Origin: a phage | Reading direction: 5' to 3' (one strand) | DNA: 64,000 bases | Sequence record: PZ445489.1 | Made by a program: the position numbers and the translations under genes | Shown here: positions 574-61,585 of the stretch, one piece after another | Layout: every line of letters begins with the position of its first letter | Numbering within the stretch: position 1 is the stretch's first letter | The notes under the pieces: generated by a model | Database searches by the model: none | What the model saw: only the letters and a program-made list of their open reading frames with translations | What the model was told of the DNA's origin: nothing

Positions 574-1059
574 AACAATACTCCTGTATTGGAAATGAAA
601 TAAGTTTTCTTTAGGACTATTCAGAAAGAATAGAACAACTGTTACTGTCAATTTCTCAACAAATTAATCGCAAATACTGAAGGGGGGTGGCAACTTCCCC
701 TTTCACGCTACACTGCCGCTTCACTATACCGCACAAATCCTTGAGGATGGCCGCTAAGCCAGATTTGCTCACCTAATGCTTCATGTACTAGCTCATACTA
801 GATGTAGTATACCTTACGTCATCACTTCTCAGAGTTTTTCACTCTTCCCGTCTCACTTCACAACCACCTCACACTAGGTTGCTTCGAGGCCTTACCAGGG
901 TTCCTACGGGATGTAGATCGCTAAGTATTCTATTAACTATTTGTTTAAAAACTAACACGTAACAGTTAAAACAACCCTTAATGGGGCAGCCTAACTGTTC
1001 CGTATCGCGGATTGTAAACAAGAAAAATTAGCAAAATCAATTTTTACTAATGTCTCTCA

Positions 1060-1112
1060 ATTCAATATAAATATTATATCAAGATTTTGGGCATCATGCA
1101 AGTAAAATTTTC
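1060..1112 (-). promoter_or_regulatory. T5-type sigma70 promoter, minus strand
   Basis: On minus strand: TTGCAT (1096-1101), 17-nt spacer, TATAAT (1073-1078), conserved leader. Confidence 0.5.
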
Positions 1113-1139
1113 CGGATGGTGCTATCATTGGTCTTGAGT

Positions 1140-1172
1140 ACGGATAAAACCGAGCCAAAATGACTCGGTTAT
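1140..1172 (-). terminator. hairpin terminator downstream of 1178..1375
   Basis: Minus-strand hairpin aaccgagtcattttggctcggtt followed by T-rich run. Confidence 0.4.
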
Positions 1173-1177
1173 GTGGA

Positions 1178-1375
1178 TTAGACACTTAAAATACTTCTAA
1201 TCTCTTCTATATACTTATCTACTTTTTTAGCATCTACTTTATTTAGTTTTCCTATATCAAAACTAGGATCAGTAAACATTCTAGCTATCTCTATCTCTAG
1301 AGACTTACTAATTTTCCCTGTAGTATTCCACTTAGAAATCTTACCTTTTATTTTCCAAAATTCCTTATTCATCAT
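1178..1375 (-). CDS. hypothetical protein (65 aa)
   Basis: ORF; start overlaps stop of upstream gene (translational coupling). Confidence 0.4.
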   Translation of the reverse strand: MMNKEFWKIKGKISKWNTTGKISKSLEIEIARMFTDPSFDIGKLNKVDAKKVDKYIEEIRSILSV

Positions 1376-1757
1376 TTAATCCCGGAACATATATCCCAAC
1401 ACGGTTTAATTGTTCTTTAGCTTCTTTGAGAATATCTGGAGTGTACTCCCAAATATCATCTTCCACCTGTAAAAGATGGGGCGAACAACCATCATCAGGC
1501 ACACGACATATGGCAAAACCACGTGGATGGAACAAAGAGAAATTTAGTGCAACAATTAAACCCATAGCAGACAATTCATTCCAATCCAATTCCCATTCCC
1601 CAGCGTAGCCTGATAGGCAAACACCAATACAGGGATCGTCTATTTGCTGCTCCGGAAAAGTGAAGGAGACTTGTCTTACTCCCAACCAACGTTGTAGCAG
1701 CTTCTCCGCACGTTTCACCAAACTAGGGTCAATCTGACGCCAATATACTTGTTCCAT
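1365..1757 (-). CDS. hypothetical protein (130 aa), paralog of 1767..2195
   Basis: Shares motifs with neighbour: SF.F....ID.PCIG, W.EL..MGL..ALN..LF.P, G..IPGL. Confidence 0.55.
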   Translation of the reverse strand: MEQVYWRQIDPSLVKRAEKLLQRWLGVRQVSFTFPEQQIDDPCIGVCLSGYAGEWELDWNELSAMGLIVALNFSLFHPRGFAICRVPDDGCSPHLLQVEDDIWEYTPDILKEAKEQLNRVGIYVPGLNDE

Positions 1758-1766
1758 TCTGCCTCC

Positions 1767-2195
1767 TTAAGCAGTTAAACCTGGGATCATATACCCGAAA
1801 CGTCGAAGTTTCTGAATCCCCTCATTTACTTCTTCCGGTGAGTAAGACCAACCATAACGTTCATTAACCTGAAAACCAGGAGATTCACTAGTTTTATAGT
1901 TAACAACGAGGCGATGCTTAGCAGGCATAAACAGCTTATAGTTTAACGCAAAAACTAAGCCCATTTCATCTAACTCTTTCCAGCCAACAATTTCTTCAAG
2001 ACCATCTTCTACCTGCACAATTAAACCAATACAGGGGGCCTCATCAATATCATCTTTAAAAGCAAAGGAGATTTCATTATTCTCACACCATATTTTCAGA
2101 GCATTAATAGCCTCATTGTACAGGTTGGCTGGAAGAGTATGCCAAAAATTAACCAATATTGGGTTAGCTTCTTTAGAGAATACATTATTGAACAT
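1767..2195 (-). CDS. hypothetical protein (142 aa), paralog of 1365..1757
   Basis: Tandem duplicate of downstream gene by shared motifs. Confidence 0.55.
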   Translation of the reverse strand: MFNNVFSKEANPILVNFWHTLPANLYNEAINALKIWCENNEISFAFKDDIDEAPCIGLIVQVEDGLEEIVGWKELDEMGLVFALNYKLFMPAKHRLVVNYKTSESPGFQVNERYGWSYSPEEVNEGIQKLRRFGYMIPGLTA

Positions 2196-2197
2196 AT

Positions 2198-2704
2198 TTA
2201 CACCTTAAATTGTTGTAAGGATTTACACATTTCAAGATCTGGGCTAAATTCTAGCATATAGCTAACAGCTTTTAAATCTTGAAGATTTATTCCAGTTCTA
2301 CCATTGACTATAACTGTTGGATACTGATACATCATAGCACCAGCGTCATCCAGTACACACCAATGTTTGAGCTTATGCTTTTCAACGAAGCGAAGAACAG
2401 AATTACCCCTAGATAGCCCACCACCAGTAAAATCCGTTGTACCAAGAAAACGATCGATAAGACCTAATCCGGTCATAATCTGAACGTTCTCCATCTCATT
2501 CCTGACAGAGAACCATGAGGATACTCCAACAATCATTATCGGAGAAGGACGAATAAAGTCCTGAAAAGCCTTGAGAAGCGGTTTGAAAACCCAGTCACTT
2601 CCAAAGAAAATCTTTTCATCATCAGGTGCATGATGGTGGGAGATGCTCGAATTGAGCACCCCATCAATGTCTAGAAAAATAATTGGAGTATTACTTATTT
2701 CCAT
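2198..2704 (-). CDS. HAD-superfamily phosphatase-like protein
   Basis: N-terminal IIFLDIDGVLN resembles HAD motif I (DxDGT/V). Confidence 0.5.
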   Translation of the reverse strand: MEISNTPIIFLDIDGVLNSSISHHHAPDDEKIFFGSDWVFKPLLKAFQDFIRPSPIMIVGVSSWFSVRNEMENVQIMTGLGLIDRFLGTTDFTGGGLSRGNSVLRFVEKHKLKHWCVLDDAGAMMYQYPTVIVNGRTGINLQDLKAVSYMLEFSPDLEMCKSLQQFKV

Positions 2705-2873
2705 TTTTGTTCCTTTCTAAGAACGTATCATACTCAACCGTATTCACATATATAACACCATAGTCATCGGATTTATAGTCCATTTCCCACAACTCACAGC
2801 GATAGTACCAACTACCGTCCGCCCATACAAATATATCATCAGGGTGTGTATACACAGATTTAATTATGGACAT
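2691..2873 (-). CDS. hypothetical protein (60 aa)
   Basis: ORF with start/stop overlaps to neighbours in operon. Confidence 0.35.
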   Translation of the reverse strand: MSIIKSVYTHPDDIFVWADGSWYYRCELWEMDYKSDDYGVIYVNTVEYDTFLERNKNGNK

Positions 2874-3688
2874 ATTTGTTTCCCTGGCATATAAGGTCTA
2901 CCCTCTAGATGAGCTTCTACACGAGCAATAAAATCAGGGTCACTAAAAGCATCTACCGCACCTTTACTCCAGTAAGGAATACCACGATCTTCCAACTGGT
3001 ACATCTCACTACGAGTCATACCTTGATAGCCCGGTTCTGCCGCTAGGGCACTATCGTAGTAGTTAACTACCATTAATTTGGCAGCAGTCAAATTAAGAAC
3101 AGGAAATAATTCCCAGTAGAAGTTAATTACTTGGTTAGAACAACCAACCACAATGATCATATCTTGACTGGTAATATCATCAAAAACATTGTACATTTCT
3201 GTATATGCTGGAGCATGCTCACCAAAGAAGATTACATTAGGTTTAACCCATTTATAATCATCTGGGTCAATAGAGCTATACCCAACATCAATAATTCGTT
3301 TATTACTACTATTGTAGCTGTCAGCTACAACAACCTCTTTTAAATATCCGTGAATGTGCAGAATGTCACTATGTGGAACGCCAGCACGTTCAATAAGGTC
3401 ATCAACATTGGTAGTCAAGTTTACTACTTGACCTGGATATTGTTTATACCATTCACCAATACGCAAATGTGCAAGATTGGGTTCAACAGTTTTTAGCTCT
3501 TCACGACGCTTGTTGTAAAACATATGGGTTTTATGATAAAAATTACCACGAAAGGCATGAATATTACATACTTCTTCTAGATTATAATCATCCCACAATG
3601 CTTTACCACTAGCAGTATCAGTACGAAAAGCTCGTACACCACTTTCAACACTCAAACCCGCACCGCTAATAATAATTAATCTACGCAT
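2864..3688 (-). CDS. Sir2-family (sirtuin-like) NAD-dependent protein
   Basis: Motifs SGAGLSVESGVRAFR, TTNVDDLIERAG, ILHIHG, IVVGCS match sirtuin signatures. Confidence 0.7.
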   Translation of the reverse strand: MRRLIIISGAGLSVESGVRAFRTDTASGKALWDDYNLEEVCNIHAFRGNFYHKTHMFYNKRREELKTVEPNLAHLRIGEWYKQYPGQVVNLTTNVDDLIERAGVPHSDILHIHGYLKEVVVADSYNSSNKRIIDVGYSSIDPDDYKWVKPNVIFFGEHAPAYTEMYNVFDDITSQDMIIVVGCSNQVINFYWELFPVLNLTAAKLMVVNYYDSALAAEPGYQGMTRSEMYQLEDRGIPYWSKGAVDAFSDPDFIARVEAHLEGRPYMPGKQICP

Positions 3689-3902
3689 TTTTCACCTGTT
3701 CTCTGAAGTTTTGCCCAATACTGTCTAATAGCTCAGCTAATTCTTTATTGCCTTTCTCCATTAAGGTGTTAGCAATAACTTCTAGCATAGTAGCGCAGGA
3801 TTCAACCCCATCCTTATAGCCAGTTTCCCAGTGCTGCATTAATGCGTTTTCCAAAGCGGCGTTTAAACCCTTATCTGGTAGCATCGGCTTCGAGAATGCC
3901 AT
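3681..3902 (-). CDS. hypothetical protein (73 aa)
   Basis: ORF, overlapping start/stop in operon. Confidence 0.4.
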   Translation of the reverse strand: MAFSKPMLPDKGLNAALENALMQHWETGYKDGVESCATMLEVIANTLMEKGNKELAELLDSIGQNFREQVKNA

Positions 3903-4074
3903 AAAGTTTCTCCTCTAGTTCCATAACACGATTTTCATAAGAGGCACGCAACTTTTCAATTGCCAGTGCACGCACTGTAACCTCATTAGAATTAATAGCT
4001 AACTGGGCCAGATCTTCTGTTTCCATACGTCCGTTGTAAATTAAGCGATATTTAAGATGTTTTACGTTTTTCAT
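3871..4074 (-). CDS. hypothetical protein (67 aa)
   Basis: ORF in operon. Confidence 0.4.
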   Translation of the reverse strand: MKNVKHLKYRLIYNGRMETEDLAQLAINSNEVTVRALAIEKLRASYENRVMELEEKLYGILEADATR

Positions 4075-4083
4075 TCTTGTTCC

Positions 4084-4365
4084 TTAGTTCTGTACTGTAA
4101 ATTCATTCTTATCACAGTGAGCATAATAATACCCATACATACGATAAATTTTCACAGCCTTAGTAGACCCCTTCGATTCTTCATAATCAATCCAGAGCCA
4201 CTTGTCTTTACCTACATAATGTACCCGAAACTTCTTAGCTTTCTTATCATTCCATGTTGCAACAACACGACGATAATCAAATCCGCCCAACCAATCTAGA
4301 GCCTTACGTTCTTCACTAGGCTCTCCAAGATGGGAGACATCTACTTTAGGAAGCAATTCGCTCAT
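4084..4365 (-). CDS. hypothetical protein (93 aa)
   Basis: ORF immediately downstream of nrdD; no radical-SAM CxxxCxxC motif. Confidence 0.45.
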   Translation of the reverse strand: MSELLPKVDVSHLGEPSEERKALDWLGGFDYRRVVATWNDKKAKKFRVHYVGKDKWLWIDYEESKGSTKAVKIYRMYGYYYAHCDKNEFTVQN

Positions 4366-4399
4366 AGCTTTCTCCTCTCAAATTTATAAATCTATTATA

Positions 4400-4450
4400 T
4401 ATAAATTTTTGGCTGAAAGCAAATAAAATAAAAGCCAGGTCGACTAGCAA
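4400..4450 (-). terminator. candidate hairpin after nrdD
   Basis: Imperfect hairpin agccgggttgc..ctggct followed by T-rich run on minus strand. Confidence 0.35.
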
Positions 4451-4464
4451 CCCGGCTGATTAGC

Positions 4465-6339
4465 TTACTTAGCTCGAATATCCTGATGCTTCACTCTACC
4501 CATCACCTCGTGCTGTTTGCCAGGGTTAAATGGACGAGCACCCGGATTTCCAAGATACCCACAAACTCGACGAGTTACTTCAAGAGTTTCGGGGTCATGA
4601 TTACCACAGATAGGACACTTAAACCCATCTTCGGATGCTATTGTTTCACCTAAGAATCCGCATTTACCGCAAGAATCCACTGGAGTATTAATACCGAAGT
4701 AATGAACTTTACTAGCAGCATAATTAATAACCCATTCCAGTGCATCTGGGAATCGTTTCATATCCGGTAGTTCTACATAGGAAATGCACCCACCAGAAGC
4801 AATAGGCGTAAAGTTAGATTCATAATCAAATTTCACGTTAGGAGCAACTTTACGCTCTACATCAAGGTGGTGCGAGTTAGTGTAGTATCCTTTAGACAGA
4901 ATATCTTCATGCTCTGGGAAATATTCACGGTCTAAACGGCAAAACCTATCACATAGGGACTCTGACGGTGTAGCATACAGGCTATAACCTAACTTAGTCT
5001 CTTCCTTCTTCTGATCGACTCTATCTCGCATGTACTGCAATACACGCTGAACAAACTTGATGCAGGTCTCTGACATTGTGTCTACATCTTTGCCAAACAT
5101 GAACTGTAGCATTTCATGGCAACCAATATACCCTAGAGATACAGAAGCACGGTTATAGAAATGATCGAATACATATTCATCAGGCTCCAAGCGTAACCCA
5201 AAGGCTCCTGACATATAGAGGATGGGTGCAGCTTTAGCTTGGATGTATTTTAAGCGATCAACTCTCCACTCCAATGCTTTTAACGCTGTATCCACACGTA
5301 GCTCAAGCAAATCAAAGAATAGATCAATATTTCCTTCAGCTTCGATAGCAATTCTAGGCAAGTTTACAGAAACAACACCTAAGTTATTACGGCCAGCAGT
5401 TTCACCATCTTCTGCAGCAGCTAGGAATGAACGGCAGCCCATAGAAACTTTATAGTCTCCAGTAACTTCTACAACCTTGTCATAGCTGATATAATCTGGA
5501 TACATACGTTCAGCAGTACATTTCATAGCTAACTTCTTGATGTCATAATTAACATCTCCTGGTTTCATATTTACGCCATCGCGAAGTACAAATACCAGTT
5601 TCGGGAAGATAGCTGTACGTTTATTGATACCTAAACCATCCATGCGTACTTTCAGTATTGCTTTCTGTACTAGACGTGCTTCCCAGGAAGTTCCTAGACC
5701 AAAACCAAAGGTAATAAATGGACTCTGACCATTAGAGTTGAACATGGTATTGATTTCATATTCTAAACCCTGACAAGCGTCATAGACTTCTTTTTCAGTC
5801 ATCTCCGTAGCCATTACTGATGCTTTGGCTTCATCCTTAGTCCAACGTTTTGCAAACGCATGATTTTTGTCATAGGATTTACGAACATAAGGGGCTAATA
5901 CTTCATCAAGGCGATCTACAGAAGTACCACCGTACTGATGGGAGCTAACCTGAGTGATAATCTGAGCAGTAATAGCCGCCGCAGTAGTGATAGAGTTTGG
6001 AGTGCTAATTTCAGCATTACCAACCTTCATACCATTCTTCAACATATCTTCCAAAGCTACCAGACAACAGTTAGTCATGCCTAATGCAGCATAATCAGCA
6101 TCGTGGAAATGAATATCCCCAATCATATGAGCATTTCGAATCTGAATAGGCATTTCTTCTAGAATTAGATACTTACTCAATTCACCTGCAAGCATATCCC
6201 TTTGTGTAGGGAAACGTTCTGAGGGTTTATTGGCATTATTAAACAGCAGCTCTTCATCTGCTGACCCTTCGATAATCTCTTTGCAGTTTCTAATTAACGC
6301 CTGCATTTCTTTATACTTTAGTTCTTCATTACGATTCAT
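4465..6339 (-). CDS. nrdD: anaerobic ribonucleoside-triphosphate reductase (class III)
   Basis: 624 aa; C-terminal glycyl-radical motif RVCGYLG and Zn-ribbon CGKCG..CPICG. Confidence 0.9.
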   Translation of the reverse strand: MNRNEELKYKEMQALIRNCKEIIEGSADEELLFNNANKPSERFPTQRDMLAGELSKYLILEEMPIQIRNAHMIGDIHFHDADYAALGMTNCCLVALEDMLKNGMKVGNAEISTPNSITTAAAITAQIITQVSSHQYGGTSVDRLDEVLAPYVRKSYDKNHAFAKRWTKDEAKASVMATEMTEKEVYDACQGLEYEINTMFNSNGQSPFITFGFGLGTSWEARLVQKAILKVRMDGLGINKRTAIFPKLVFVLRDGVNMKPGDVNYDIKKLAMKCTAERMYPDYISYDKVVEVTGDYKVSMGCRSFLAAAEDGETAGRNNLGVVSVNLPRIAIEAEGNIDLFFDLLELRVDTALKALEWRVDRLKYIQAKAAPILYMSGAFGLRLEPDEYVFDHFYNRASVSLGYIGCHEMLQFMFGKDVDTMSETCIKFVQRVLQYMRDRVDQKKEETKLGYSLYATPSESLCDRFCRLDREYFPEHEDILSKGYYTNSHHLDVERKVAPNVKFDYESNFTPIASGGCISYVELPDMKRFPDALEWVINYAASKVHYFGINTPVDSCGKCGFLGETIASEDGFKCPICGNHDPETLEVTRRVCGYLGNPGARPFNPGKQHEVMGRVKHQDIRAK

Positions 6340-6426
6340 TATACTCTCCTTCTCTAACTAAGACTACTATTATAACTCATTCGAGGGCGGATGTCAACAA
6401 TATTTTACTATAAAGTTCTGTAACAT

Positions 6427-6480
6427 GATCTGAGTCAAAAAATTTTATTTGCCAATCTCTATTAAAAATTGTATAATCAC
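6427..6480 (+). promoter_or_regulatory. T5-type early promoter
   Basis: TTGCCA 6439-6444, 17-nt spacer, TATAAT 6462-6467. Confidence 0.6.
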
Positions 6481-6576
6481 GCACTCGTGCACGCGATATA
6501 AAATGATTATCTAGTATCACACATCTCACGTTAAAAGCAAGCAAATTTTTTATTTAAATGCAATATCATAGGCTTA

Positions 6577-6630
6577 TTTAAAATTGTAGTTGCTTTTTAC
6601 TGTATATATTGGTATAATATATTTGTAAGT
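6577..6630 (+). promoter_or_regulatory. T5-type early promoter
   Basis: TTGCTT 6589-6594, 17-nt spacer, TATAAT 6612-6617. Confidence 0.65.
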
Positions 6631-13295: not shown

Positions 13296-13345
13296 AATTT
13301 CATTTGCTTATTTAGTGAAATTTAAATATAATATATTTTATAAAT
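13292..13345 (+). promoter_or_regulatory. T5-type early promoter
   Basis: TTGCTT 13304-13309, 17-nt spacer, TATAAT 13327-13332. Confidence 0.6.
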
Positions 13346-16357: not shown

Positions 16358-16405
16358 TTTGCTTCCGGCCCCAAAATTCTGTATAATATATTCATAAATT
16401 TGAGA
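16345..16405 (+). promoter_or_regulatory. T5-type early promoter (overlaps 3' end of previous CDS)
   Basis: TTGCTT 16359-16364, 17-nt spacer, TATAAT 16382-16387. Confidence 0.6.
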
Positions 16406-49911: not shown

Positions 49912-50224
49912 ACGAGGAATCTCACATGAAATGGGGGTATATTTACTTTTAAATAACTAAAAATATTTAAAGGCAATATCTGTGTTCAAGATGATACACC
50001 TGTTGCCGCTCATCTGCTAGGATGGCACAACACTTTCTAGTAGACTCCTAAGTTTCTAGGAATAGTTGAGCACTAACTCTAGAGTTTACATTAAACTTTA
50101 AATCTGTTTCTCTAGCCAACTCAGGCGGTTTTCATTGTTCCTAGAAACTCTAGCAATAGGCGGTTATAGGGAGGGCGGTTATTTCTAGAAGACATTTTTT
50201 GAAAACACATTTCCAGAAATTACT

Positions 50225-50825
50225 GTCGGATTTGCACACTGCATTTCTAGAAATTTATGGTCGGATTTGCACAAACGCCTAAGTTTTTAGGGACACATAA
50301 TCTCCTGAAAATAGCAGCATTATTTCGGGCCGAAGGCCCATGATTGCCTGAGTTTTTAGAGCCACAGAAATTTTCACTTGTCAAGCTATTTTGCCCCGTT
50401 TAGCTAATAAAATTTTACTTTTTCTGCACCTATCTCAAATTAACCCAAATTATCTCACATCTTCCCCAAAATCCCCGCAAATCAGGTGCTCCGCACCAAA
50501 CATGCGCCCCATCCTTCTAGCCTCCCAAATTTCTCTCACTCTCTCATCTTCTCCTCAAACCCACACAATCACACACCCTCCAATCGAAGTCACAAAAATC
50601 TTGTCGGATTCGCACAAATAAACCCATGTCGGATTTGCACATATTCTAGCTAATTCCACAGGATTGATGCGCAGCATCGGATTGCTGGAGTTTTTGGGAA
50701 AATTCATTGTCGGATTTGCACACTATAAAAATTTTTCGGGTCGGATTTGCACACTACCAAAAATTGTCGGATTCGCACATACATGCCCGCACGTAACACC
50801 CGTGGAGCAATGTCGGATTTGCACA
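50225..50825 (+). repeat. eight direct copies of 14-bp box GTCGGATT(T/C)GCACA
   Basis: Copies at 50225, 50260, 50603, 50628, 50709, 50740, 50766, 50812, all same orientation. Confidence 0.8.
50510..50585 (+). other. G-free C/T/A tract on + strand (about 75 nt)
   Basis: cctcccaaatttctctcactctctcatcttctcctcaaacccacacaatcacacaccctc has no G. Confidence 0.7.
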
Positions 50826-50871
50826 AAAGCGCAGGGCAATTGCCCTGCTAGCCTGAATGCGAATGATAATA

Positions 50872-51000
50872 AGAATCATTATCATTTAAAAAGCGAAATG
50901 AGAACTATTCAAAAAGTGAAATGATTCTCATTTAGGAAAGGAAATGATTATCGGTTAGAAAGTGAAATGCGAATGAGAATAATTCTCATTTAAGAATGGA
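50872..51000. promoter_or_regulatory. cluster of palindromic AATGAGAAT-N-ATTCTCATT-type operator-like boxes
   Basis: Palindromes at 50872-50896, 50928-50943, 50982-51000 plus GAAATGA half-site repeats. Confidence 0.55.
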
Positions 51001-51023
51001 AGTGAGAAACACTGTTATTTAAG

Positions 51024-51105
51024 TTATCCACAGACTTATTAACAGCACGATTTGACTTGACAGAATCCTAGCCATTTTGAGGCGTTATTAACAGACTTAT
51101 CCACA
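51024..51105 (+). promoter_or_regulatory. two DnaA-box-like TTATCCACA sites
   Basis: TTATCCACA at 51024-51032 and 51097-51105. Confidence 0.5.
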
Positions 51106-51129
51106 GCTTATCCTACTGTATAAATATAC
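51094..51129. repeat. 36-bp inverted repeat, left copy (partner 54637-54672)
   Basis: gacttatccacagcttatcctactgtataaatatac; 34 of 36 match reverse complement of right copy. Confidence 0.7.
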
Positions 51130-51327
51130 AGTATTCCTACGTAGTGAATAATTCTAATATACCGCTAAAACGTCCTAGATCGCATTCTAACGCGTTTAAT
51201 TTTGGTGGGGATACTAAAACAAGGGCAAAATTGGAGGAGGCTTAAAAATTAGTTAGCCCGCTAACGATCACACAAGTCGACACGTAACACCCTAATCATT
51301 AGCAGGCTAACCATCGCGGGCGCGCTC

Positions 51328-51348
51328 AAATGAGAATGATTCTCATTT
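51328..51348. promoter_or_regulatory. palindromic operator-like box AAATGAGAATGATTCTCATTT
   Basis: 10-bp arms, same family as the 50.9-kb boxes; just beyond 3' end of leftward operon. Confidence 0.5.
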
Positions 51349-51389
51349 GAGAATTGGGGGCACTCCCTGGTAGTTGCGCCCCGTTATTA

Positions 51390-51584
51390 TTAATCCGGTA
51401 ATTGATGCGTGATCTTCTCCTCTTCCCCATAGGAATCGACCAAATGCTGATAATAACCATCGGCATCATAAATAACGCTATCATATTCCCCCCGCTCGAC
51501 CGCTTGCCGGTTTTCCGGCGTATCGGGCACGTAAAAAACATCAACCATTGTACTGATTTTGGTTACAACAATTTTATTGCTCAT
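51390..51584 (-). CDS. hypothetical pre-early protein (64 aa)
   Basis: ORF, last gene of leftward operon; ATGA overlap with upstream gene. Confidence 0.45.
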   Translation of the reverse strand: MSNKIVVTKISTMVDVFYVPDTPENRQAVERGEYDSVIYDADGYYQHLVDSYGEEEKITHQLPD

Positions 51585-51925
51585 TGCGCCACCTTTCGAA
51601 ACGCTGTTTCAATACTATCCGCAGTGGATTGAATATACGCGCCTTTCATTACTAGGCGCTCGGTGCATACCTTGCGGAAAATATTAATAAAATCATCTTC
51701 ATTTTCTGCAATTAATGCTTCACCCATAACCTGAACGTCACAAGATGCAAAGGTCAAAAATTGAAACGCTAGTTCACGGGCAACGACCGCATTAATCTTA
51801 TAATGCGCTTTGCCCTCATAAATATTAATAACGCCCTTATAAGCTGGTGAAAGCTGGTTTAAATAGTTTGCTAACAATGCCGGGCGGCAATTAGCAACAA
51901 AGCGGTTGCCCTCATAAATAACCAT
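51581..51925 (-). CDS. hypothetical pre-early protein (114 aa)
   Basis: ATG after GGGAGG RBS (track start 51940 is upstream in-frame). Confidence 0.5.
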   Translation of the reverse strand: MVIYEGNRFVANCRPALLANYLNQLSPAYKGVINIYEGKAHYKINAVVARELAFQFLTFASCDVQVMGEALIAENEDDFINIFRKVCTERLVMKGAYIQSTADSIETAFRKVAQ

Positions 51926-51926
51926 T

Positions 51927-52052
51927 TTATAACCTCCCAATCAGATAGCCAGATAAAAGCATAAAAACCCCCAGTAAAAGGGGATCATTCTTAAATAGGG
52001 TGGCGGTAAAACCGCCAACCATTGCAAGGATAATAATAATAACGCTTTTCAT
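51927..52052 (-). CDS. small hydrophobic membrane peptide (41 aa)
   Basis: Single TM helix; stop overlaps next start; below ORF-track cutoff. Confidence 0.3.
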   Translation of the reverse strand: MKSVIIIILAMVGGFTATLFKNDPLLLGVFMLLSGYLIGRL

Positions 52053-52261
52053 AGTACCCCACGAAACGCAGCGTAAAAGGTGGCAAAGTGTTTAACCGTT
52101 TCAGCGATCACGTTGCCGCGCTTGTCAAATTTCTTTTCTGTAACACGAAAGGCATTCTTATTACGTGCTACATATTCGATTTTACAATCTTCACGCTCGA
52201 ACGTGTTAACATCCACCAGCTTAAAGCCTTTCGAACGGGCAAGGGAAACATTGCGGATCAT
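52049..52261 (-). CDS. hypothetical pre-early protein (70 aa)
   Basis: ATG after AAGGAG RBS. Confidence 0.5.
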   Translation of the reverse strand: MIRNVSLARSKGFKLVDVNTFEREDCKIEYVARNKNAFRVTEKKFDKRGNVIAETVKHFATFYAAFRGVL

Positions 52262-52263
52262 TT

Positions 52264-52419
52264 TTATTCTCCTTTACTAGTCATGCAGCCCAGCAGATAA
52301 GAAAATGCAGCGATACCTGCGCCAATAATAACCGCGTGAACGCCGAAAGCTATTGCAAACAACGATAAAATAGCGCCCAAGATACCCGCTAAAATAGCTC
52401 GAAAAATAACCATTTTCAT
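52264..52419 (-). CDS. small hydrophobic membrane peptide (51 aa)
   Basis: Single TM helix; below ORF-track cutoff. Confidence 0.3.
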   Translation of the reverse strand: MKMVIFRAILAGILGAILSLFAIAFGVHAVIIGAGIAAFSYLLGCMTSKGE

Positions 52420-52460
52420 TCCCCCTAGTTAGTGGGGCGAAAATAACGCCCCGTTATTAA

Positions 52461-52769
52461 TTACATTAAAACAATTTTAGCCGCTTGTTTTTTGGTGCAA
52501 TGTTCTGCTTTCAGGGTATCCAGCAAAAAGCCCGCCGTTTGCTGATCGATTTGATCATTATCATAAAGCGCCTGAATGGTAGTGTATGTTTTAGCAATGC
52601 CATATTCTTGCACCATTTCGTGAATAATAACGCGGTTAGATACCCAGCCTTGAGCGGTGAACAGATGACTAGCAGAAGAATAAGCAACCATTTTAAGCCT
52701 CCAATTTTTGGGAAAATTTTCAACCGTCCTCAAACGGTGTAAAGGCATTATAACAAAAAAGGCCACCAT
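52461..52769 (-). CDS. hypothetical pre-early protein (102 aa)
   Basis: ORF. Confidence 0.5.
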   Translation of the reverse strand: MVAFFVIMPLHRLRTVENFPKNWRLKMVAYSSASHLFTAQGWVSNRVIIHEMVQEYGIAKTYTTIQALYDNDQIDQQTAGFLLDTLKAEHCTKKQAAKIVLM

Positions 52770-52796
52770 AAAAGGCGACCTTTACAAAACTTTACA

Positions 52797-53291
52797 TTAG
52801 ACTACTTGTAGGGATTCAATATTGAAACATCGTTTCAATTCGTCATGCAAAACAGCATATTCATCCCATCGGGTACTATCAGGAATATAAACAAGCTGTT
52901 TTAATCGATTTGCGTATATTACCGCTTTGTTACCAACTATCTCGACGCCACCATATTTAATAATTAATCTCATGACGGAATTAATAGGATCGCCGCCGTT
53001 TACATATGTGCCGGATTTACTTAATTGATAATGATAAAGGCTTGCATATACGTTTTCATTTTCATACCATTCGCCAGTTTCTTCGTCTTCGTAACCATCG
53101 CTACCAAAACGAGAAGCATTATCAATAGCCATTTCCTGAGCGAAAGCGTCCAGATTACAGCCAGCTGGAACAAAATGTTCCTCCGTCCAACCTTCCCCGC
53201 AATAGCCAGTATGACAATCGACCAAAATGATCATATCATGTTTTGCCATGCTCACTTCTCCCAGTGAGAAGCCATATTTTTCATCAGCCAT
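52797..53291 (-). CDS. hypothetical pre-early protein (164 aa)
   Basis: ORF with GGAGG RBS. Confidence 0.55.
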   Translation of the reverse strand: MADEKYGFSLGEVSMAKHDMIILVDCHTGYCGEGWTEEHFVPAGCNLDAFAQEMAIDNASRFGSDGYEDEETGEWYENENVYASLYHYQLSKSGTYVNGGDPINSVMRLIIKYGGVEIVGNKAVIYANRLKQLVYIPDSTRWDEYAVLHDELKRCFNIESLQVV

Positions 53292-53356
53292 TTATTAGCC
53301 TCCTATTAATTAACAAGGGAATACTAAAGCGGGGTAACAATCCCCGCTTAGTATTA

Positions 53357-54367
53357 TTACTCGCTTTCGGTGTTAGTAGTAAAAGTAGAAATATCAATAC
53401 CTTTTACCATTTCATCAATCATTTCAGCGATGTTAAAACTTTGCACCATTTCTAACATAGCCGCTTCCATAGCCGCGCCTGCTACCGCTTTCGCTTTCTG
53501 GTTACTCGGGGCATACTGGTCAACCGCTACACTCAGCAGGTTGGCAATCACTACCCGACCAATCGGTGTATCAATATAACCTTTGATCATAAACGGTGCT
53601 TTTTTAGCCGCTACTTTCGTGATTTGAGTCAATGCAATTTTACCTGCTTCCAGTTTTGCAGCATTTACAACAGCGGATTTATTAGCGGCAACAATATTAG
53701 CGATCTTGGTCATGGTGTTTTTTCCTTTGTTTTCAGTAGTTTGAATTTTAACGCTTTGAGTGTTAGAATTTACAGCATGGTTTTCTACGCTGTCAATAAT
53801 CTGATCTTCATCTTTCCAGAAAGAAAAACCAGCGCTTTCTATATCCCCATCATAAATATATGGGTATAGCTCCCGTGGTAACAAAAAATTACCGTCGCCA
53901 TCAAAAGCCATTATACCGGTATATTGAGATCCGTCGTTATCCGGCTTATGCCATCCAGCCGGTAAATACTTCCAGATAACATCTAAAAATCCCTCAATAC
54001 TAGAAAGTCCGTTTATCAGATCAAGCCCAATAAGCTCAAAACCATTTATATTAAATGATTGACGGCCTGAATTGCTATGATACGCAACAATATTATTACC
54101 CTGTGCAACAATAAAATCGGTATCCGGCCCCGCTCCCCTGCCAGTAAAGATATGGCAATCACGGTTATATAAAACTAGCGTTGCCCCGTACTTATATAAT
54201 GGCAAAAAACCTTCCATATCATAGGCGTCATAGTCATCAAAAAAGTTTTGATGAATAGTTTCAGCCTTGTTAATAAAATGTTTAATGCTGGTTGACTTGC
54301 TACCGTCCAGCAGGTTACGCAGCGCACCTTTTAAGACGGTAGCATTATCAGGTTTATACAGCCTCAT
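53357..54367 (-). CDS. hypothetical pre-early protein (336 aa)
   Basis: First and largest gene of leftward operon; RBS GGAGG. Confidence 0.55.
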   Translation of the reverse strand: MRLYKPDNATVLKGALRNLLDGSKSTSIKHFINKAETIHQNFFDDYDAYDMEGFLPLYKYGATLVLYNRDCHIFTGRGAGPDTDFIVAQGNNIVAYHSNSGRQSFNINGFELIGLDLINGLSSIEGFLDVIWKYLPAGWHKPDNDGSQYTGIMAFDGDGNFLLPRELYPYIYDGDIESAGFSFWKDEDQIIDSVENHAVNSNTQSVKIQTTENKGKNTMTKIANIVAANKSAVVNAAKLEAGKIALTQITKVAAKKAPFMIKGYIDTPIGRVVIANLLSVAVDQYAPSNQKAKAVAGAAMEAAMLEMVQSFNIAEMIDEMVKGIDISTFTTNTESE

Positions 54368-59552: not shown

Positions 59553-60287
59553 ATGAATCAAGTTAAAACGAATATTACCCGTAATTTCCCGCATATTTCC
59601 CGCGTCATGATTTGGGATCTGGACGGAACTATCATTAATTCTTTCCATCGCGTAGCGCCTTGCTTTGATAGCGAGGGCAATTTAGATTTAAATAAGTATA
59701 AAAATGAAGCATGTAAACATGATTTAATAATGCAAGATACACTATTGCCGCTTGTTACATATATGCGCCAGTGCATGAATGATGTTAGTACGTTAAACAT
59801 TATTTGCACCGCTCGACTGATGAGCAAGTCGGACTATTATTATTTGCGCAAACAAGGATTGCGAGGGCGTGGGGATAGTAATATCCGTGTATTTTCCCGC
59901 GATACACTACACAAATATTTTGAGGCTGATAAAGTTAGCGAGATATACCACAGCAAAGACGCTATTTATAAAAGCCATTACTTTGAGTTATTTAAACAAT
60001 TATATCCGAACGCTGATTTCACGATGATTGATGATCATAAAGGCGTGCTATCAGCGGCGGCGTCATACGGATTTAAAACGCTGGACGCGCAAGCCGTTAA
60101 CGATATTCTATCGATTGGGGTTACATTGATAGGTGAAACCTTTATCGATGAATCTCTTGAGGATGATAATGATTATCAGTTCCTAGCCGACCGCCTGCAA
60201 TTATGTTGGGAAGGTATGACCGAAGAAGAACGCGCAGAATATAGTTGCAGCCCGCAACAATATATTGAGAAATTAAAAGTTGCGTAA
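59553..60287 (+). CDS. dmp: HAD-family 5'-deoxyribonucleotidase-like protein (Dmp-like)
   Basis: 244 aa; HAD motif I IWDLDGTIIN; size and position match T5 dmp as I recall it. Confidence 0.55.
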   Translation: MNQVKTNITRNFPHISRVMIWDLDGTIINSFHRVAPCFDSEGNLDLNKYKNEACKHDLIMQDTLLPLVTYMRQCMNDVSTLNIICTARLMSKSDYYYLRKQGLRGRGDSNIRVFSRDTLHKYFEADKVSEIYHSKDAIYKSHYFELFKQLYPNADFTMIDDHKGVLSAAASYGFKTLDAQAVNDILSIGVTLIGETFIDESLEDDNDYQFLADRLQLCWEGMTEEERAEYSCSPQQYIEKLKVA

Positions 60288-60299
60288 TAATTAAAGTTG

Positions 60300-60345
60300 A
60301 AATAGTCACGGTGTGTAATGATAACATGCCGTGACTATTAGCCTG
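60300..60345 (+). terminator. hairpin after dmp-like gene
   Basis: agtcacggtgtgtaatgataacatgccgtgact stem-loop; no clear T-run. Confidence 0.35.
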
Positions 60346-60438
60346 CTAAGTACCGGGCGGTAATGAGACTCATTCTCATCTGGAGGGCCACTGGACACAC
60401 CTCCATGTGTAATCTTATGAAATTTGGCAAAAAGTCAA

Positions 60439-60684
60439 TTAGCGCATAGAAGGGTCATCAAAACGATGTTCAGGTTTAAACTCACGAAATCTCTTCCGCG
60501 ACGCCCGAGATCCATCCGACCATTCTCGCTCAAACTCCGCACGTTTCTCGTCAAACTTCCGCTCCCTATCCGCAATCTCCCGCGTCACTCCCGCAATATA
60601 TTTACGATGCTTGTTGATTGCCGCAGTTGTCCCGAAAACCCCCGCGAGTATCCCGATAATAAAAGCAATTACAATACTAAACAT
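60439..60684 (-). CDS. small membrane protein (81 aa)
   Basis: N-terminal TM helix then charged tail. Confidence 0.45.
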   Translation of the reverse strand: MFSIVIAFIIGILAGVFGTTAAINKHRKYIAGVTREIADRERKFDEKRAEFEREWSDGSRASRKRFREFKPEHRFDDPSMR

Positions 60685-60871
60685 CTAATTCCCTCTCAAT
60701 TTGCAGAATACGGGTACTATCACAACGTTGCAGTAGTGCTAGCTTTTCTAGAGTAACTTGTTGTTGTTTTACCTGAGCTTCTAGCGTTTTTAGGCGAACG
60801 TACACGGTGTAAGAAATAATGAAAACTGCCCAGACTAGTATTACTGTTAGTGTAGCTACTACCTCCATCAT
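60677..60871 (-). CDS. small membrane protein (64 aa)
   Basis: N-terminal TM helix; overlaps downstream gene start. Confidence 0.45.
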   Translation of the reverse strand: MMEVVATLTVILVWAVFIISYTVYVRLKTLEAQVKQQQVTLEKLALLQRCDSTRILQIERELDV

Positions 60872-60974
60872 TTACATTTCTCCGATAGTAAGGTTTCGAT
60901 TCTAGCTAAGTGATTATCTAAGATACATTGCCCAATAATCACAATCCCTAGTAATGCAATAATTACCCATTCCA

Positions 60975-61160
60975 TTAAATCCATCCCGCCATAGCTGCTA
61001 ACCAAAAACCTACGAAGATTAGGAATAATACAAAACCAAATCCGTAAATATTAATCCACTCTTCGTACACCTCTCCGCGTCTGTTCTTTCTTTTGTTGCC
61101 GTTTGACATGTCTTTCATACTCCCGTAAATGTGGTATTTGGAATATTCTAGCAATTGCAC
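60975..61160 (-). CDS. small membrane protein (61 aa)
   Basis: C-terminal TM helix. Confidence 0.4.
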   Translation of the reverse strand: MQLLEYSKYHIYGSMKDMSNGNKRKNRRGEVYEEWINIYGFGFVLFLIFVGFWLAAMAGWI

Positions 61161-61272
61161 AAGTCATAACATTTTATCTTATATGATGTTCTGAATGACC
61201 TCAATTGCATTGTGAACTAGTTTTGACCTAGGATCCACCCTAAGTGGCATGGGTTTATGGGAGGGATTCTCC

Positions 61273-61506
61273 TCAGAAAACTCCTTCACATGTATTCCCC
61301 TCGGTAAAGTAGCTTACTGGAGCCCAGAAAGATCCATAGGCCATGATTGGTGCCACCAGGAACATATCCCCTTTTCTATCAAAAACATTAGCCTTATATT
61401 TCACATGATCTTGTACATAGTAGGCCTCACATTTAATATCTTTAGGCCCAAAAGTAGAGCAAGCCGAAAGAAGTACCACTGCCATAGCTAAAAATAATTT
61501 TTTCAT
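61273..61506 (-). CDS. llp: lytic-conversion lipoprotein Llp-like
   Basis: 77 aa; signal peptide with lipobox LSAC; AGGAG RBS; divergent from pb5-like gene as in T5. Confidence 0.75.
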   Translation of the reverse strand: MKKLFLAMAVVLLSACSTFGPKDIKCEAYYVQDHVKYKANVFDRKGDMFLVAPIMAYGSFWAPVSYFTEGNTCEGVF

Positions 61507-61585
61507 TTACATTCTCCTCTGTTTAATTTATAATACTATTATACAGAATTATAGCAACATAAGCAATTAAATTTTTGGAGAACTT

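What the first reader, a model, noticed from the sequence alone, without database searches (positions are those of the whole stretch)
2198..3688. Sir2-like and HAD-like genes in the nrdD-led leftward operon
The 274-aa protein carries sirtuin-type motifs (GAGLSVESGVRAFR, TTNVDDLIERAG, HIHG). The gene two positions downstream has an HAD motif I (FLDIDGVL). Together with two tandem paralogs (1365-2195) they are translationally coupled downstream of nrdD. A phage Sir2 enzyme could be a deacylase, an ADP-ribosyltransferase or an NAD-consuming enzyme; its role here is unknown.
Basis: partly seen in the sequence, partly recalled or inferred. Interest (0 to 1): 0.55.

Follow-up and report, generated by a model that had tools for sequence, protein, structure and literature searches.

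The report
Phage T5-type sirtuin and HAD phosphatase
This is the long-annotated Sir2-like gene of T5-like phages with a neighbouring HAD phosphatase: a real, apparently active but zinc-less sirtuin whose function has been predicted in print but, as far as I could find, never tested.

Summary
Window 2864-3688(-) encodes a genuine sirtuin (Pfam SIR2 2e-25; AlphaFold pLDDT 91; best structural match E. coli CobB). Window 2198-2704(-) encodes a complete HAD phosphatase of family HAD_SAK_2. The window is a T5-like phage, 96-99% identical to sequenced Tequintavirus genomes where the gene is already called Sir2-like.

More than 1000 phage records carry a homologue. The Sir2-HAD pairing in T5-like phages was described by Iyer et al. 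(2022), who predicted a KptA/Tpt1-like RNA-repair role. I found no experimental test.

The cluster is not nrdD-led. A terminator-like hairpin and an exact copy of the phage's recurrent promoter motif separate it from nrdD.

New details:
- The clade derives from class III sirtuins. It keeps the catalytic His, FGE and the YxxR pocket, has lost the zinc cysteines, carries TTNVD instead of TQNID, and is strongly acidic.
- A 60-aa protein always follows Sir2. The two are exchanged between phages as one block.
- The HAD is dispensable in Klebsiella T5-like phages. In four other phage loci its homologues head NARP1-like NAD+-reconstitution operons.

Favoured mechanism: NAD+-dependent protein lysine deacylase (0.35). 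Rivals are RNA 2'-phosphate removal and NAD/ADP-ribose metabolite handling. Already known; modest interest.

The parts
2864..3688 (-). Sir2-like gene (274 aa): zinc-less, phage-specific offshoot of class III (CobB/SIRT5-like) sirtuins
   Evidence: Pfam SIR2 E 2e-25. phrog_2162 E 4e-121. PDB sequence search: best hit E. coli CobB 1s5p, E 1e-17. AlphaFold2 pLDDT 91.2, pTM 0.89. Foldseek top hits are CobB, Sir2Af1 and SIRT5.
3650..3664 (-). GAGLS NAD-binding glycine motif (aa 9-13); F21 and R22 follow
   Evidence: G9, A10, G11, G17, F21 and R22 are invariant in 23 clade members of 34-57% identity.
3503..3517 (-). FYNKRR: the Y58-x-x-R61 motif of class III sirtuins, which forms the anionic-acyl pocket
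   Evidence: Aligns to CobB FYNARR in the HMMER alignment. F57 and Y58 are invariant and R62 is at least 90% conserved. The role of YxxR in SIRT5/CobB is from established knowledge.
3398..3415 (-). TTNVDD: the nicotinamide-pocket motif, with Thr in place of the canonical Gln of TQN(I/V)D
   Evidence: T92, T93, N94 and D96 are invariant in the clade. More distant, cysteine-bearing relatives mostly have TQN.
3347..3352 (-). Catalytic His113-Gly114
   Evidence: Invariant. Aligns to the HG of CobB.
3218..3346 (-). Small-domain beta module (aa 115-154) without zinc cysteines, ending in F155-G156-E157
   Evidence: No Cys between HG and FGE in this protein. 56 of the 84 close homologues whose motifs could be parsed have none. 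The CobB cysteines align to non-Cys residues or gaps. The module is still modelled as strands with pLDDT above 90.
2691..2873 (-). 60-aa ORF (phrog_5116) overlapping the Sir2 stop; candidate Sir2 partner; conserved core DIxVWPDGSWCYR
   Evidence: Found directly after Sir2 in T5-like loci, in Klebsiella T5-likes that lack the HAD, in L037/L038, and in L074/L075 where the HAD has moved upstream. It diverges together with Sir2.
2198..2704 (-). HAD_SAK_2 phosphatase (168 aa), apparently cap-less
   Evidence: Pfam PF18143 E 4e-20. Motif I FLDIDGVLN, motif II SSWF, R99 in GGGxxRG and motif IV D119-D120 are all invariant in 14 homologues. No sequence match to a solved structure.
2651..2677 (-). HAD motif I, FLDIDGVLN (nucleophile D12, acid/base D14)
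   Evidence: Invariant.
1767..2195 (-). DUF7415 protein a (142 aa)
   Evidence: PF24187 E 1e-33. Kept with Sir2 in all T5-like loci, including those without the HAD.
1365..1757 (-). DUF7415 protein b (130 aa), paralogue of a
   Evidence: PF24187 E 4e-32. 32% identical to a.
1178..1375 (-). 65-aa ORF, the last tightly packed gene of the cluster
   Evidence: phrog_29527 E 5e-39. Overlaps the DUF7415 b stop by 11 nt.
3681..4365 (-). Three small leader ORFs (93, 67 and 73 aa) between the promoter and Sir2
   Evidence: phrog_7953, phrog_5236 and phrog_5827. Conserved in T5-like loci.
4389..4422 (-). Promoter-like element of the cluster, TTGCTT-N17-TATAATAGATT
   Evidence: Exact match. 13 copies in the window against 0.05 expected. 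Sequence read. A related 55-nt element recurs elsewhere in L042.
4433..4457 (-). Terminator-like hairpin directly after nrdD
   Evidence: 10-bp stem with 6 GC pairs, then TTTATTTTAT.
4465..6339 (-). nrdD (context only; a separate unit with its own consensus promoter at 6369-6397)
   Evidence: 624-aa ORF. Annotated NrdD in relatives. 12/12 sigma-70 match.

Best explanation
The cluster is an early-expressed accessory module of a T5-like phage.

SHOWN: its core is a catalytically intact, zinc-less sirtuin of a phage-restricted clade that branches from class III (CobB/SIRT5-type) sirtuins. A 60-aa protein is always encoded directly after it. A complete HAD phosphomonoesterase and two DUF7415 proteins are co-transcribed with it.

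INFERRED, my favoured reading: the sirtuin works by ordinary sirtuin chemistry.
- It binds NAD+.
- An acyl oxygen of an acyl-lysine on a host or phage protein attacks C1'' and nicotinamide leaves.
- His113 helps resolve the intermediate to a deacylated lysine plus O-acyl-ADP-ribose.
- The retained Tyr58-x-x-Arg61 pocket suggests acidic acyl groups (succinyl or malonyl type) as well as acetyl.

The HAD is not an obligate partner. It most likely removes a ribose-linked phosphate from an NAD/ADP-ribose-type nucleotide. The purpose would be to reset protein acylation and handle NAD-derived by-products during takeover.

The confidence given below is for the deacylase reading. That this is a real, probably active sirtuin plus a real HAD phosphatase in one early unit I hold at about 0.9.
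For: - Fold and family: Pfam SIR2 E 2e-25. The nearest solved sequences and structures are CobB, Sir2Af1 and SIRT5, all class III deacylases. The model is confident, with pLDDT 91.
- Residues: GAG, F21/R22, N94/D96, H113/G114, F155 of FGE, S184 and V187 are invariant across 23 clade members down to 34% identity.
- YxxR aligns exactly with CobB FYNARR. C41 and V95 sit at the positions mutated in the CobB acyl-pocket variants A76G and I131C of the PDB entries.
- Not a defence-type SIR2: no PADLOC hit.
- Acidic proteins: median pI 5.0, net charge about -10 to -20. This fits protein or small-molecule substrates better than RNA.
- No RNA ligase, AAA_33 kinase, Nudix or MazG homologue in the window or in 104 of the 109 kb of the near-identical phage oldekolle.
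- The HAD is absent from Klebsiella T5-like loci that keep Sir2, the 60-aa ORF and DUF7415.
- Own promoter-like site.
Against: - No biochemical or genetic data exist for any member, as far as I could find.
- The clade departs from all characterised deacylases in two invariant ways. The zinc cysteines are lost. The conserved Gln of TQN(I/V)D is Thr.
- Scores against curated CobB models are far below cutoff (100 bits against 243).
- Neighbours in other phage groups all process nucleotides, RNA ends or ADP-ribose: RNA ligase 1, a kinase, a MazG-like enzyme and a phosphoesterase in rV5 and PVP-SE1, and an overlapping Nudix gene in jumbo phage UB. This is the basis of the published RNA-repair prediction.
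- A deacylase gives no obvious reason for a linked phosphomonoesterase.
Confidence: 0.35

Rival explanations
1. Published prediction (Iyer, Burroughs, Anantharaman and Aravind 2022). The phage sirtuin clade is a functional analogue of KptA/Tpt1. It transfers ADP-ribose from NAD+ to an RNA 2'-phosphate left after tRNA or RNA cleavage, releasing ADP-ribose 1''-2'' cyclic phosphate. The HAD either trims RNA terminal phosphates or dephosphorylates the ADP-ribose phosphate by-product.
For: - The text of PMC9503650 section 3.7.3 names the T5-like SP15 sirtuin plus 'Swiss-army-knife-like' HAD neighbourhood.
- I confirmed the RNA ligase 1 / kinase / Sir2 / MazG-like / phosphoesterase clusters in rV5_ev158 and PVP-SE1, and the Sir2-Nudix overlap in phage UB.
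- The HAD family takes its Pfam name from multidomain RNA-repair proteins.
- HAD homologues head NARP1-like operons. The proven accessory enzyme there, Adpp, is an ADP-ribose-1''-phosphate phosphatase homologous to yeast Poa1, which acts downstream of Tpt1. If the HAD is isofunctional, a phosphate-accepting Sir2 next to it makes sense.
- Sirtuin and Tpt1 chemistries are formally parallel (established knowledge).
- The T5-like relative carries 23 tRNA genes.
Against: - T5-like phages have no RNA ligase or polynucleotide kinase homologue to finish a repair.
- Sir2, the HAD and DUF7415 are all strongly acidic.
- The residues lining the lysine tunnel and the YxxR pocket are retained.
- The HAD is dispensable in Klebsiella T5-likes.
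- The prediction rests on neighbourhood only.
Confidence: 0.25
2. A small-molecule module in the NAD+ arms race.
- The HAD is a phosphatase for phosphorylated ADP-ribose or NADP-type nucleotides (ADP-ribose-1''-phosphate or 2'-phospho-ADP-ribose). It would be isofunctional with the Macro-domain Adpp of NARP1-AP.
- The Sir2 with its 60-aa partner acts on NAD+ or NAD-derived molecules rather than on macromolecules, as a counter-defence.
For: - Four independent loci show HAD_SAK_2, sometimes one or two small ORFs, a PRPS-like gene and then an NAPRTase-family gene on one strand: L076, L077, L087 and Acinetobacter phage ABPH49. In ABPH49 the HAD and PRPS-like genes overlap by 4 nt.
- This domain pair and order is how NARP1 was defined.
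- NARP1 operons are known to recruit accessory enzymes that convert odd ADP-ribose derivatives to ADP-ribose: Adpp and RyDEP.
- The T5-type and NARP1-linked HADs share all catalytic motifs plus SSWF and GGGxxRG.
- The block of Sir2 plus the 60-aa ORF is exchanged as a unit between otherwise similar phages, as host-interaction genes often are.
- The proteins are acidic.
Against: - The window and its relative have no Adps or Namat to use ADP-ribose.
- No Sir2 lies near the HAD-NARP1 operons.
- No sirtuin is known to act on immune signals.
- A phage NADase would hurt the phage.
- The substrate of the HAD is untested.
Confidence: 0.2
3. A protein ADP-ribosyltransferase. Like the macrodomain-linked bacterial sirtuins, it would modify host proteins during takeover, filling in T5-like phages the role that ART-fold enzymes play in T4.
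For: Sirtuins can act as ADP-ribosyltransferases, and Iyer et al. assign this role to other viral sirtuins. The changed TTN motif and the lost zinc site mark a departure from standard deacylases.
Against: There is no linked Macro domain or other reversing enzyme, as Iyer et al. also note. The closest relatives by sequence and structure are deacylases. There is no direct evidence.
Confidence: 0.1

Closest known systems
E. coli CobB and other class III sirtuins (Sir2Af1, SIRT5)
   Same: Best sequence and structural match: 1s5p E 1e-17, and Foldseek E 1e-16 with target TM-score 0.84. Same NAD-binding motifs, catalytic His, FGE loop and YxxR pocket.
   Different: About 25% identity. Far below the curated CobB model cutoffs. 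No zinc cysteines. TTNVD instead of TQNID. A conserved VCN motif. Acidic. Restricted to phages. Carries a C-terminal extension and a dedicated 60-aa neighbour.
Phage 'RNA-repair' sirtuin clade of Iyer et al. 2022 (PMC9503650), including the T5-like SP15 sirtuin + HAD neighbourhood
   Same: This is that clade and that neighbourhood. The window protein is 93-99% identical to the Sir2-like proteins of the closest T5-like phages listed.
   Different: Nothing differs in kind. I add the residue signature, the 60-aa partner, the block exchange, the separate promoter, and the second genomic context of the HAD.
KptA/Tpt1 RNA 2'-phosphotransferase with Poa1/Adpp ADP-ribose-1''-phosphate phosphatase
   Same: This is the proposed working analogy: an NAD+-dependent ADP-ribosyl transfer to an anionic oxygen, followed by a phosphatase that clears the ADP-ribose phosphate.
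   Different: Unrelated folds: sirtuin against ART, and HAD against Macro. The activity is not shown. The phage has no RNA ligase.
Defence sirtuins (ThsA, DSR1/2, SIR2-HerA, SIR2-APAZ)
   Same: NAD+-binding Sir2 fold. Those domains are also reported to lack the zinc site (my recollection, not tested here).
   Different: No PADLOC match. No match to them among the best solved structures. No sensor or partner domains. Encoded by a virulent phage.
NARP1-AP (Adps-Adpp-Namat) of Osterman et al. 2026 preprint
   Same: Homologues of the window's HAD occupy an accessory-phosphatase position in NARP1-like operons.
   Different: Adpp is a Macro-domain protein. The HAD version is not mentioned in the papers I could read. 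The window itself has no Adps or Namat.

Membership tests
Sirtuin (Sir2) superfamily, Pfam PF02146 | Profile match above the gathering score | tested here: met
   90.2 bits against a cutoff of 24, E 2e-25, covering 178 of 180 profile positions.
Sirtuin (Sir2) superfamily, Pfam PF02146 | Two-domain Sir2 fold (Rossmann domain plus small domain) | tested here: met
   AlphaFold2 pLDDT 91.2. Foldseek against PDB gives 291 hits at E <= 0.001. The top 50 are all canonical sirtuins.
Sirtuin (Sir2) superfamily, Pfam PF02146 | GAGxS, N and D of the nicotinamide pocket, catalytic His | tested here: met
   G9, A10, G11, N94, D96 and H113 are invariant in the clade.
Sirtuin (Sir2) superfamily, Pfam PF02146 | Conserved Gln of TQN(I/V)D | tested here: not met
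   Thr93 is invariant in the clade. TQN reappears mainly in more distant, cysteine-bearing relatives.
Sirtuin (Sir2) superfamily, Pfam PF02146 | Four-cysteine zinc site in the small domain | tested here: not met
   No Cys between HG and FGE. The CobB cysteines align to non-Cys residues or gaps.
Class III sirtuins (CobB/SIRT5 type) | Tyr-x-x-Arg pocket for anionic acyl groups | tested here: met
   F57-Y58-N-K-R61-R62 aligns with CobB FYNARR. Y58 is invariant and R62 is at least 90% conserved.
CobB equivalog (NCBIfam NF040867 / NF001753) | Score above the curated cutoff | tested here: not met
   89.7 bits against 320, and 100.5 against 243.
Protein lysine deacylase activity | NAD+-dependent removal of acyl groups from lysine | not testable with these tools
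   Needs enzyme assays. No published test was found.
Defence-type SIR2 NADases | Match to models of known defence systems | tested here: not met
   No relevant PADLOC hit at E <= 0.1.
KptA/Tpt1-like RNA repair system (functional analogy) | RNA ligase and end-healing enzymes encoded alongside | tested here: not met
   No Rnl1- or Rnl2-like ligase or AAA_33 kinase in the window or in 104 of the 109 kb of phage oldekolle. The feature is met in the rV5 and PVP-SE1 relatives.
KptA/Tpt1-like RNA repair system (functional analogy) | 2'-phosphotransferase activity on RNA | not testable with these tools
   Needs an assay with 2'-phosphate RNA.
HAD superfamily, Pfam HAD_SAK_2 PF18143 | Profile match plus motifs I-IV (DxD, S/T, K/R, DD) | tested here: met
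   73 bits against a cutoff of 27.5. D12, D14, S62/S63, R99 and D119/D120 are invariant.
NARP1 accessory phosphatase (NARP1-AP type) | Encoded in one operon with Adps and Namat | tested here: not met
   Not in this window. Met by homologues of 36-43% identity in L076, L077, L081 and L087.
NARP1 accessory phosphatase (NARP1-AP type) | Macro domain, Poa1-like | tested here: not met
   The protein is a HAD, not a Macro domain. Adpp is described.

The most novel reading that the evidence does not exclude
HAD_SAK_2 proteins are a second, non-homologous class of phage phosphatases for phosphorylated ADP-ribose. In ABPH49-like phages they would extend NARP1, as the Macro-domain Adpp does. In T5-like phages the same enzyme would work with a phosphate-accepting (Tpt1-like or otherwise non-deacylase) zinc-less sirtuin and its 60-aa partner. 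Together these would form a previously untested NAD+/ADP-ribose counter-defence or repair module.
Probability: 0.2. Interest if true: 0.7.

Novelty: already known. Interest (0 to 1): 0.32.

Why it matters
- T5-like phages are common in phage-therapy and biocontrol collections. More than 1000 sequenced phages carry this sirtuin.
- NAD+ is now recognised as a central battleground between bacteria and phages, yet the one NAD+-consuming enzyme that these phages themselves encode has, as far as I could find, never been assayed.
- Knowing whether it edits protein acylation, repairs RNA or handles NAD-derived molecules would fill a real gap.
- The link between its neighbouring HAD phosphatase and NARP1-like operons is a cheap, testable lead for a new accessory step in phage NAD+ reconstitution.
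- As a finding in this window, however, it is an already annotated and already discussed gene pair.

Tried and rejected
- DUF7415 structure: prediction from the two window paralogues alone failed (pLDDT 50), so I ran no fold search. The function of DUF7415 stays unknown.
- HAD against solved structures: single-sequence and profile searches gave nothing useful. The best hit was E 0.14 and covered motif I only.
- Fusion partners of the HAD: the 120 best of 1699 profile hits are all single-domain proteins. Bacterial and other contexts (L084, L085, T4-like Aeromonas and Morganella phages) were uninformative or mixed.
- Literature on an experimentally characterised phage sirtuin: nothing found. The CRISPRi-ART and HIDEN-SEQ main texts do not mention it. 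Burroughs & Aravind 2016 is not held. A search for a SIRT5 Q140L study found nothing.
- 'Defence-like NADase': rejected as a family assignment because there is no PADLOC hit and all the best structural matches are canonical sirtuins.
- 'nrdD-led operon': rejected.
- The 73-aa upstream ORF as part of the exchanged block: the protein comparison suggested it (34% identity). The nucleotide comparison places the left boundary inside the 5' part of sir2, so I do not claim it.
- KVP40-type Vibrio phage context: gave no functional hint.
Full report
**What the window is.** Bases 1000-6500 match 529 phage records. The best cover 96-100% of the query at 94-99% nucleotide identity, for example Salmonella phage oldekolle (Tequintavirus) and E. 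coli phage KS_S14. In oldekolle the same genes lie in the same order. There they are annotated NrdD, three hypothetical proteins, 'Sir2 (NAD-dependent deacetylase)', a second 'Sir2' that is in fact the HAD, and two hypothetical proteins. The window is therefore part of a T5-like (Demerecviridae) genome.

**Checking the observation.**
- The 274-aa protein matches Pfam SIR2 over the whole profile (E 2e-25).
- The 168-aa protein matches HAD_SAK_2 (E 4e-20).
- The two paralogues match DUF7415, and all have PHROG families.
- From the 93-aa ORF to the 65-aa ORF the genes overlap or are a few bases apart.

The part that does not hold is 'nrdD-led'. Directly after nrdD comes a 10-bp GC-rich hairpin with a T-run. 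After that comes TTGCTT-17 nt-TATAATAGATT and a strong ribosome-binding site. That promoter-like motif occurs 13 times in the window against 0.05 expected by chance. From memory it resembles the strong early promoters of T5. The Sir2 cluster is thus most likely its own early transcription unit.

**The sirtuin.**
- The best solved relative by sequence is E. coli CobB (E 1e-17), followed by Sir2Af1 and SIRT5.
- A model built on 23 clade members is confident (pLDDT 91.2, pTM 0.89). Its best structural matches are again CobB, Sir2Af1 and SIRT5.
- Across homologues down to 34% identity the NAD-binding and catalytic residues are invariant: G9, A10, G11, F21, R22, N94, D96, H113, G114, F155, S184 and V187.
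- The class III signature Tyr-x-x-Arg is kept. It aligns residue for residue with CobB.
- Two canonical features are missing throughout the clade. There are no zinc-binding cysteines in the small domain, although that domain is still modelled as a well-folded sheet. The Gln of TQN(I/V)D is always Thr.
- In a search of 1.8 billion representative proteins, the nearest roughly 30 relatives mostly share TTNVD and lack the cysteines. Further out, TQN and four cysteines return. The clade is thus a zinc-less offshoot of CobB-like sirtuins.
- It scores far below the curated CobB cutoffs and matches no model of a defence system.
- The clade is strongly acidic, with median pI 5.0.

**Distribution and what is already known.**
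- A translated search finds homologues in 1007 phage records: T5-like, rV5-like, Phapecoctavirus, PVP-SE1-like, Klebsiella, KVP40-like Vibrio and jumbo phages. Most are already annotated as Sir2-like.
- Skliros et al. 2016 modelled the Vibrio-phage version, noted the missing zinc site and proposed deacetylation of acetyl-CoA synthetase.
- Iyer et al. 2022 defined this clade and listed three neighbourhoods, including the 'Swiss-army-knife-like' HAD in T5-like phage SP15. They proposed that the sirtuin removes RNA 2'-phosphates in the manner of KptA/Tpt1, with the neighbours cleaning up RNA ends or the ADP-ribose cyclic phosphate product.
- I found no experimental test.

Both the existence of the pair and a mechanistic idea for it are therefore already in print.

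**Neighbourhoods re-examined.**
- In 69 viral contigs plus the annotated genomes, every classical T5-like locus has nrdD, small ORFs, Sir2, usually the 60-aa ORF, the HAD and two DUF7415 genes.
- In two more distant relatives the HAD sits upstream of Sir2, between nrdD and Sir2, so the linkage survives rearrangement.
- Klebsiella T5-like phages keep Sir2, the 60-aa ORF and DUF7415 but have no HAD. The HAD is therefore not an obligate partner.
- The 60-aa protein (conserved core DIxVWPDGSWCYR) follows Sir2 directly in all these groups and in two non-T5 contigs.
- Between this window and a second group of T5-like phages, NrdD is 98% identical and the HAD 90%. Sir2 and the 60-aa protein are only 51-52% identical.
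- At the DNA level there is no detectable similarity across 2703-3100 and 69% identity across 3100-3538, inside flanks of 78-88%. Most of sir2 plus the 60-aa gene has been exchanged as one block.
- I confirmed the RNA ligase 1 / kinase / Sir2 / MazG-like / DNA ligase arrangement in rV5_ev158 and PVP-SE1, and a Sir2 gene overlapping a Nudix gene in jumbo phage UB.
- The window and 104 of the 109 kb of oldekolle contain no RNA ligase, polynucleotide-kinase-like ATPase, Nudix, MazG, Adps or Namat homologue.

**The HAD.**
- All four HAD motifs are invariant in 14 homologues. So are SSWF and GGGxxRG.
- The short stretch between motifs I and II suggests a cap-less enzyme. This is my inference from the sequence.
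- No solved structure is detectable by sequence.
- Its homologues of 36-43% identity turn up in a second, consistent context. In four loci a HAD_SAK_2 gene opens a same-strand run that continues with a PRPS-like gene and an NAPRTase-family gene. The loci are two Logan contigs, one JGI contig and Acinetobacter phage ABPH49. In ABPH49 the HAD overlaps the PRPS-like gene by 4 nt.
- That gene pair and order is how NARP1 was defined. NARP1 is the phage pathway that rebuilds NAD+ from ADP-ribose and nicotinamide.
- NARP1 operons are known to recruit accessory enzymes that turn unusual ADP-ribose derivatives into ADP-ribose. One is the Macro-domain phosphatase Adpp, which acts on ADP-ribose-1''-phosphate made by the aRES defence. 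The other is the glycosidase RyDEP.
- None of the NARP papers I could read mentions a HAD.
- No Sir2 lies near these operons.

This suggests, but does not show, that the HAD family acts on a ribose-linked phosphate of an NAD/ADP-ribose-type nucleotide.

**Weighing the mechanisms.**
- Firmly supported: a real, probably active sirtuin and a real phosphatase are expressed together early.
- For a protein deacylase: the nearest relatives, the intact lysine-tunnel and YxxR residues, the acidic charge and the lack of any RNA ligase in the phage.
- Against it: the two invariant departures from canonical deacylases, and the nucleotide- and ADP-ribose-centred company the gene keeps in other phages.
- The RNA 2'-phosphate model fits those neighbourhoods. 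It also fits the parallel between Tpt1-Poa1 and Sir2-HAD, but has no ligase partner here.
- A small-molecule counter-defence role fits the NARP1 link and the block exchange. It lacks a concrete reaction for the sirtuin.

I give about 0.35 to deacylase, 0.25 to RNA repair, 0.2 to small-molecule handling and 0.1 to protein ADP-ribosylation.

**Verdict.** The finding is real but already known: the gene is annotated in hundreds of genomes, and its pairing with the HAD has been described and interpreted. The open question is experimental. The leads worth passing on are:
- the 60-aa partner and the exchange of the Sir2 block;
- the separate promoter;
- the widespread mislabelling of the HAD as 'Sir2';
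- the HAD-NARP1 operons.

Noticed in passing
window 4389-4422 (-) and 12 other sites (e.g. 6590-6623 +, 13304-13337 +, 16359-16392 +, 61533-61566 -): A recurrent promoter-like motif, TTGCT(T/A)-N17-TATAATA(T/G)ATT. It occurs 13 times at up to 2 mismatches against 0.05 expected. From memory it resembles strong T5 early promoters such as PN25.
   Followed up: partly
window 4433-4457 (-); 6369-6397 (-); 6449-6477 (+): A terminator-like hairpin lies right after nrdD. A perfect 12/12 sigma-70 consensus promoter precedes nrdD. A divergent 11/12 promoter faces the phoH-like gene.
   Followed up: partly
window 2198-2704 (-); L001 7027-7533: The HAD gene is labelled 'Sir2 (NAD-dependent deacetylase)' in RefSeq records and in PHROG 18062. 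That family covers only the C-terminal half of the HAD. This is an annotation error that has been propagated.
   Followed up: yes
window 2691-2873 (-); L037 816-1001; L038 7719-7949; L074 8603-8788; L075 7136-7315; L056 7791-7982: A roughly 60-aa protein with conserved core DIxVWPDGSWCYR is always encoded directly after the phage sirtuin, usually overlapping its stop. This holds even where the HAD is absent or has moved.
   Followed up: partly
window 2703-3565 versus L042 and L045: Mosaic block: most of sir2 plus the 60-aa gene is 51-52% identical at the protein level, with no nucleotide similarity over 2703-3100. The flanking NrdD is 98% identical and the HAD 90%.
   Followed up: yes
L076 7001-10569; L077 6001-9519; L081 5001-8222 (Acinetobacter phage ABPH49); L087 6001-9708: HAD_SAK_2 homologues open NARP1-like operons (PRPS-like gene plus NAPRTase-family gene). 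This may be a HAD counterpart of the Macro-domain phosphatase Adpp. It is not mentioned in the NARP papers I read.
   Followed up: partly
L088 4760-5197 (ABPH49): A COG3236 protein lies a few kb from the HAD-NARP1 operon. From memory, COG3236 is the NADAR domain, which acts on NAD and ADP-ribose. It would be another ADP-ribose-related gene in the same region.
   Followed up: no
L091 4965-6265 (Escherichia phage UB): In this jumbo phage the Sir2 homologue overlaps a Nudix hydrolase gene by 4 nt.
   Followed up: no
L001 12275-12496; L074 3134-3325: The small ORF after the phoH-like gene is annotated 'tail length tape measure protein' in oldekolle. It matches DUF7430 and sits among nucleotide-metabolism genes, so this is probably a misannotation.
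   Followed up: no
window, about 50000-54000 and 60000-62000: The GC-skew sign flips here, indicating blocks transcribed leftward within the mostly rightward part of the window. I did not examine this further.
   Followed up: no
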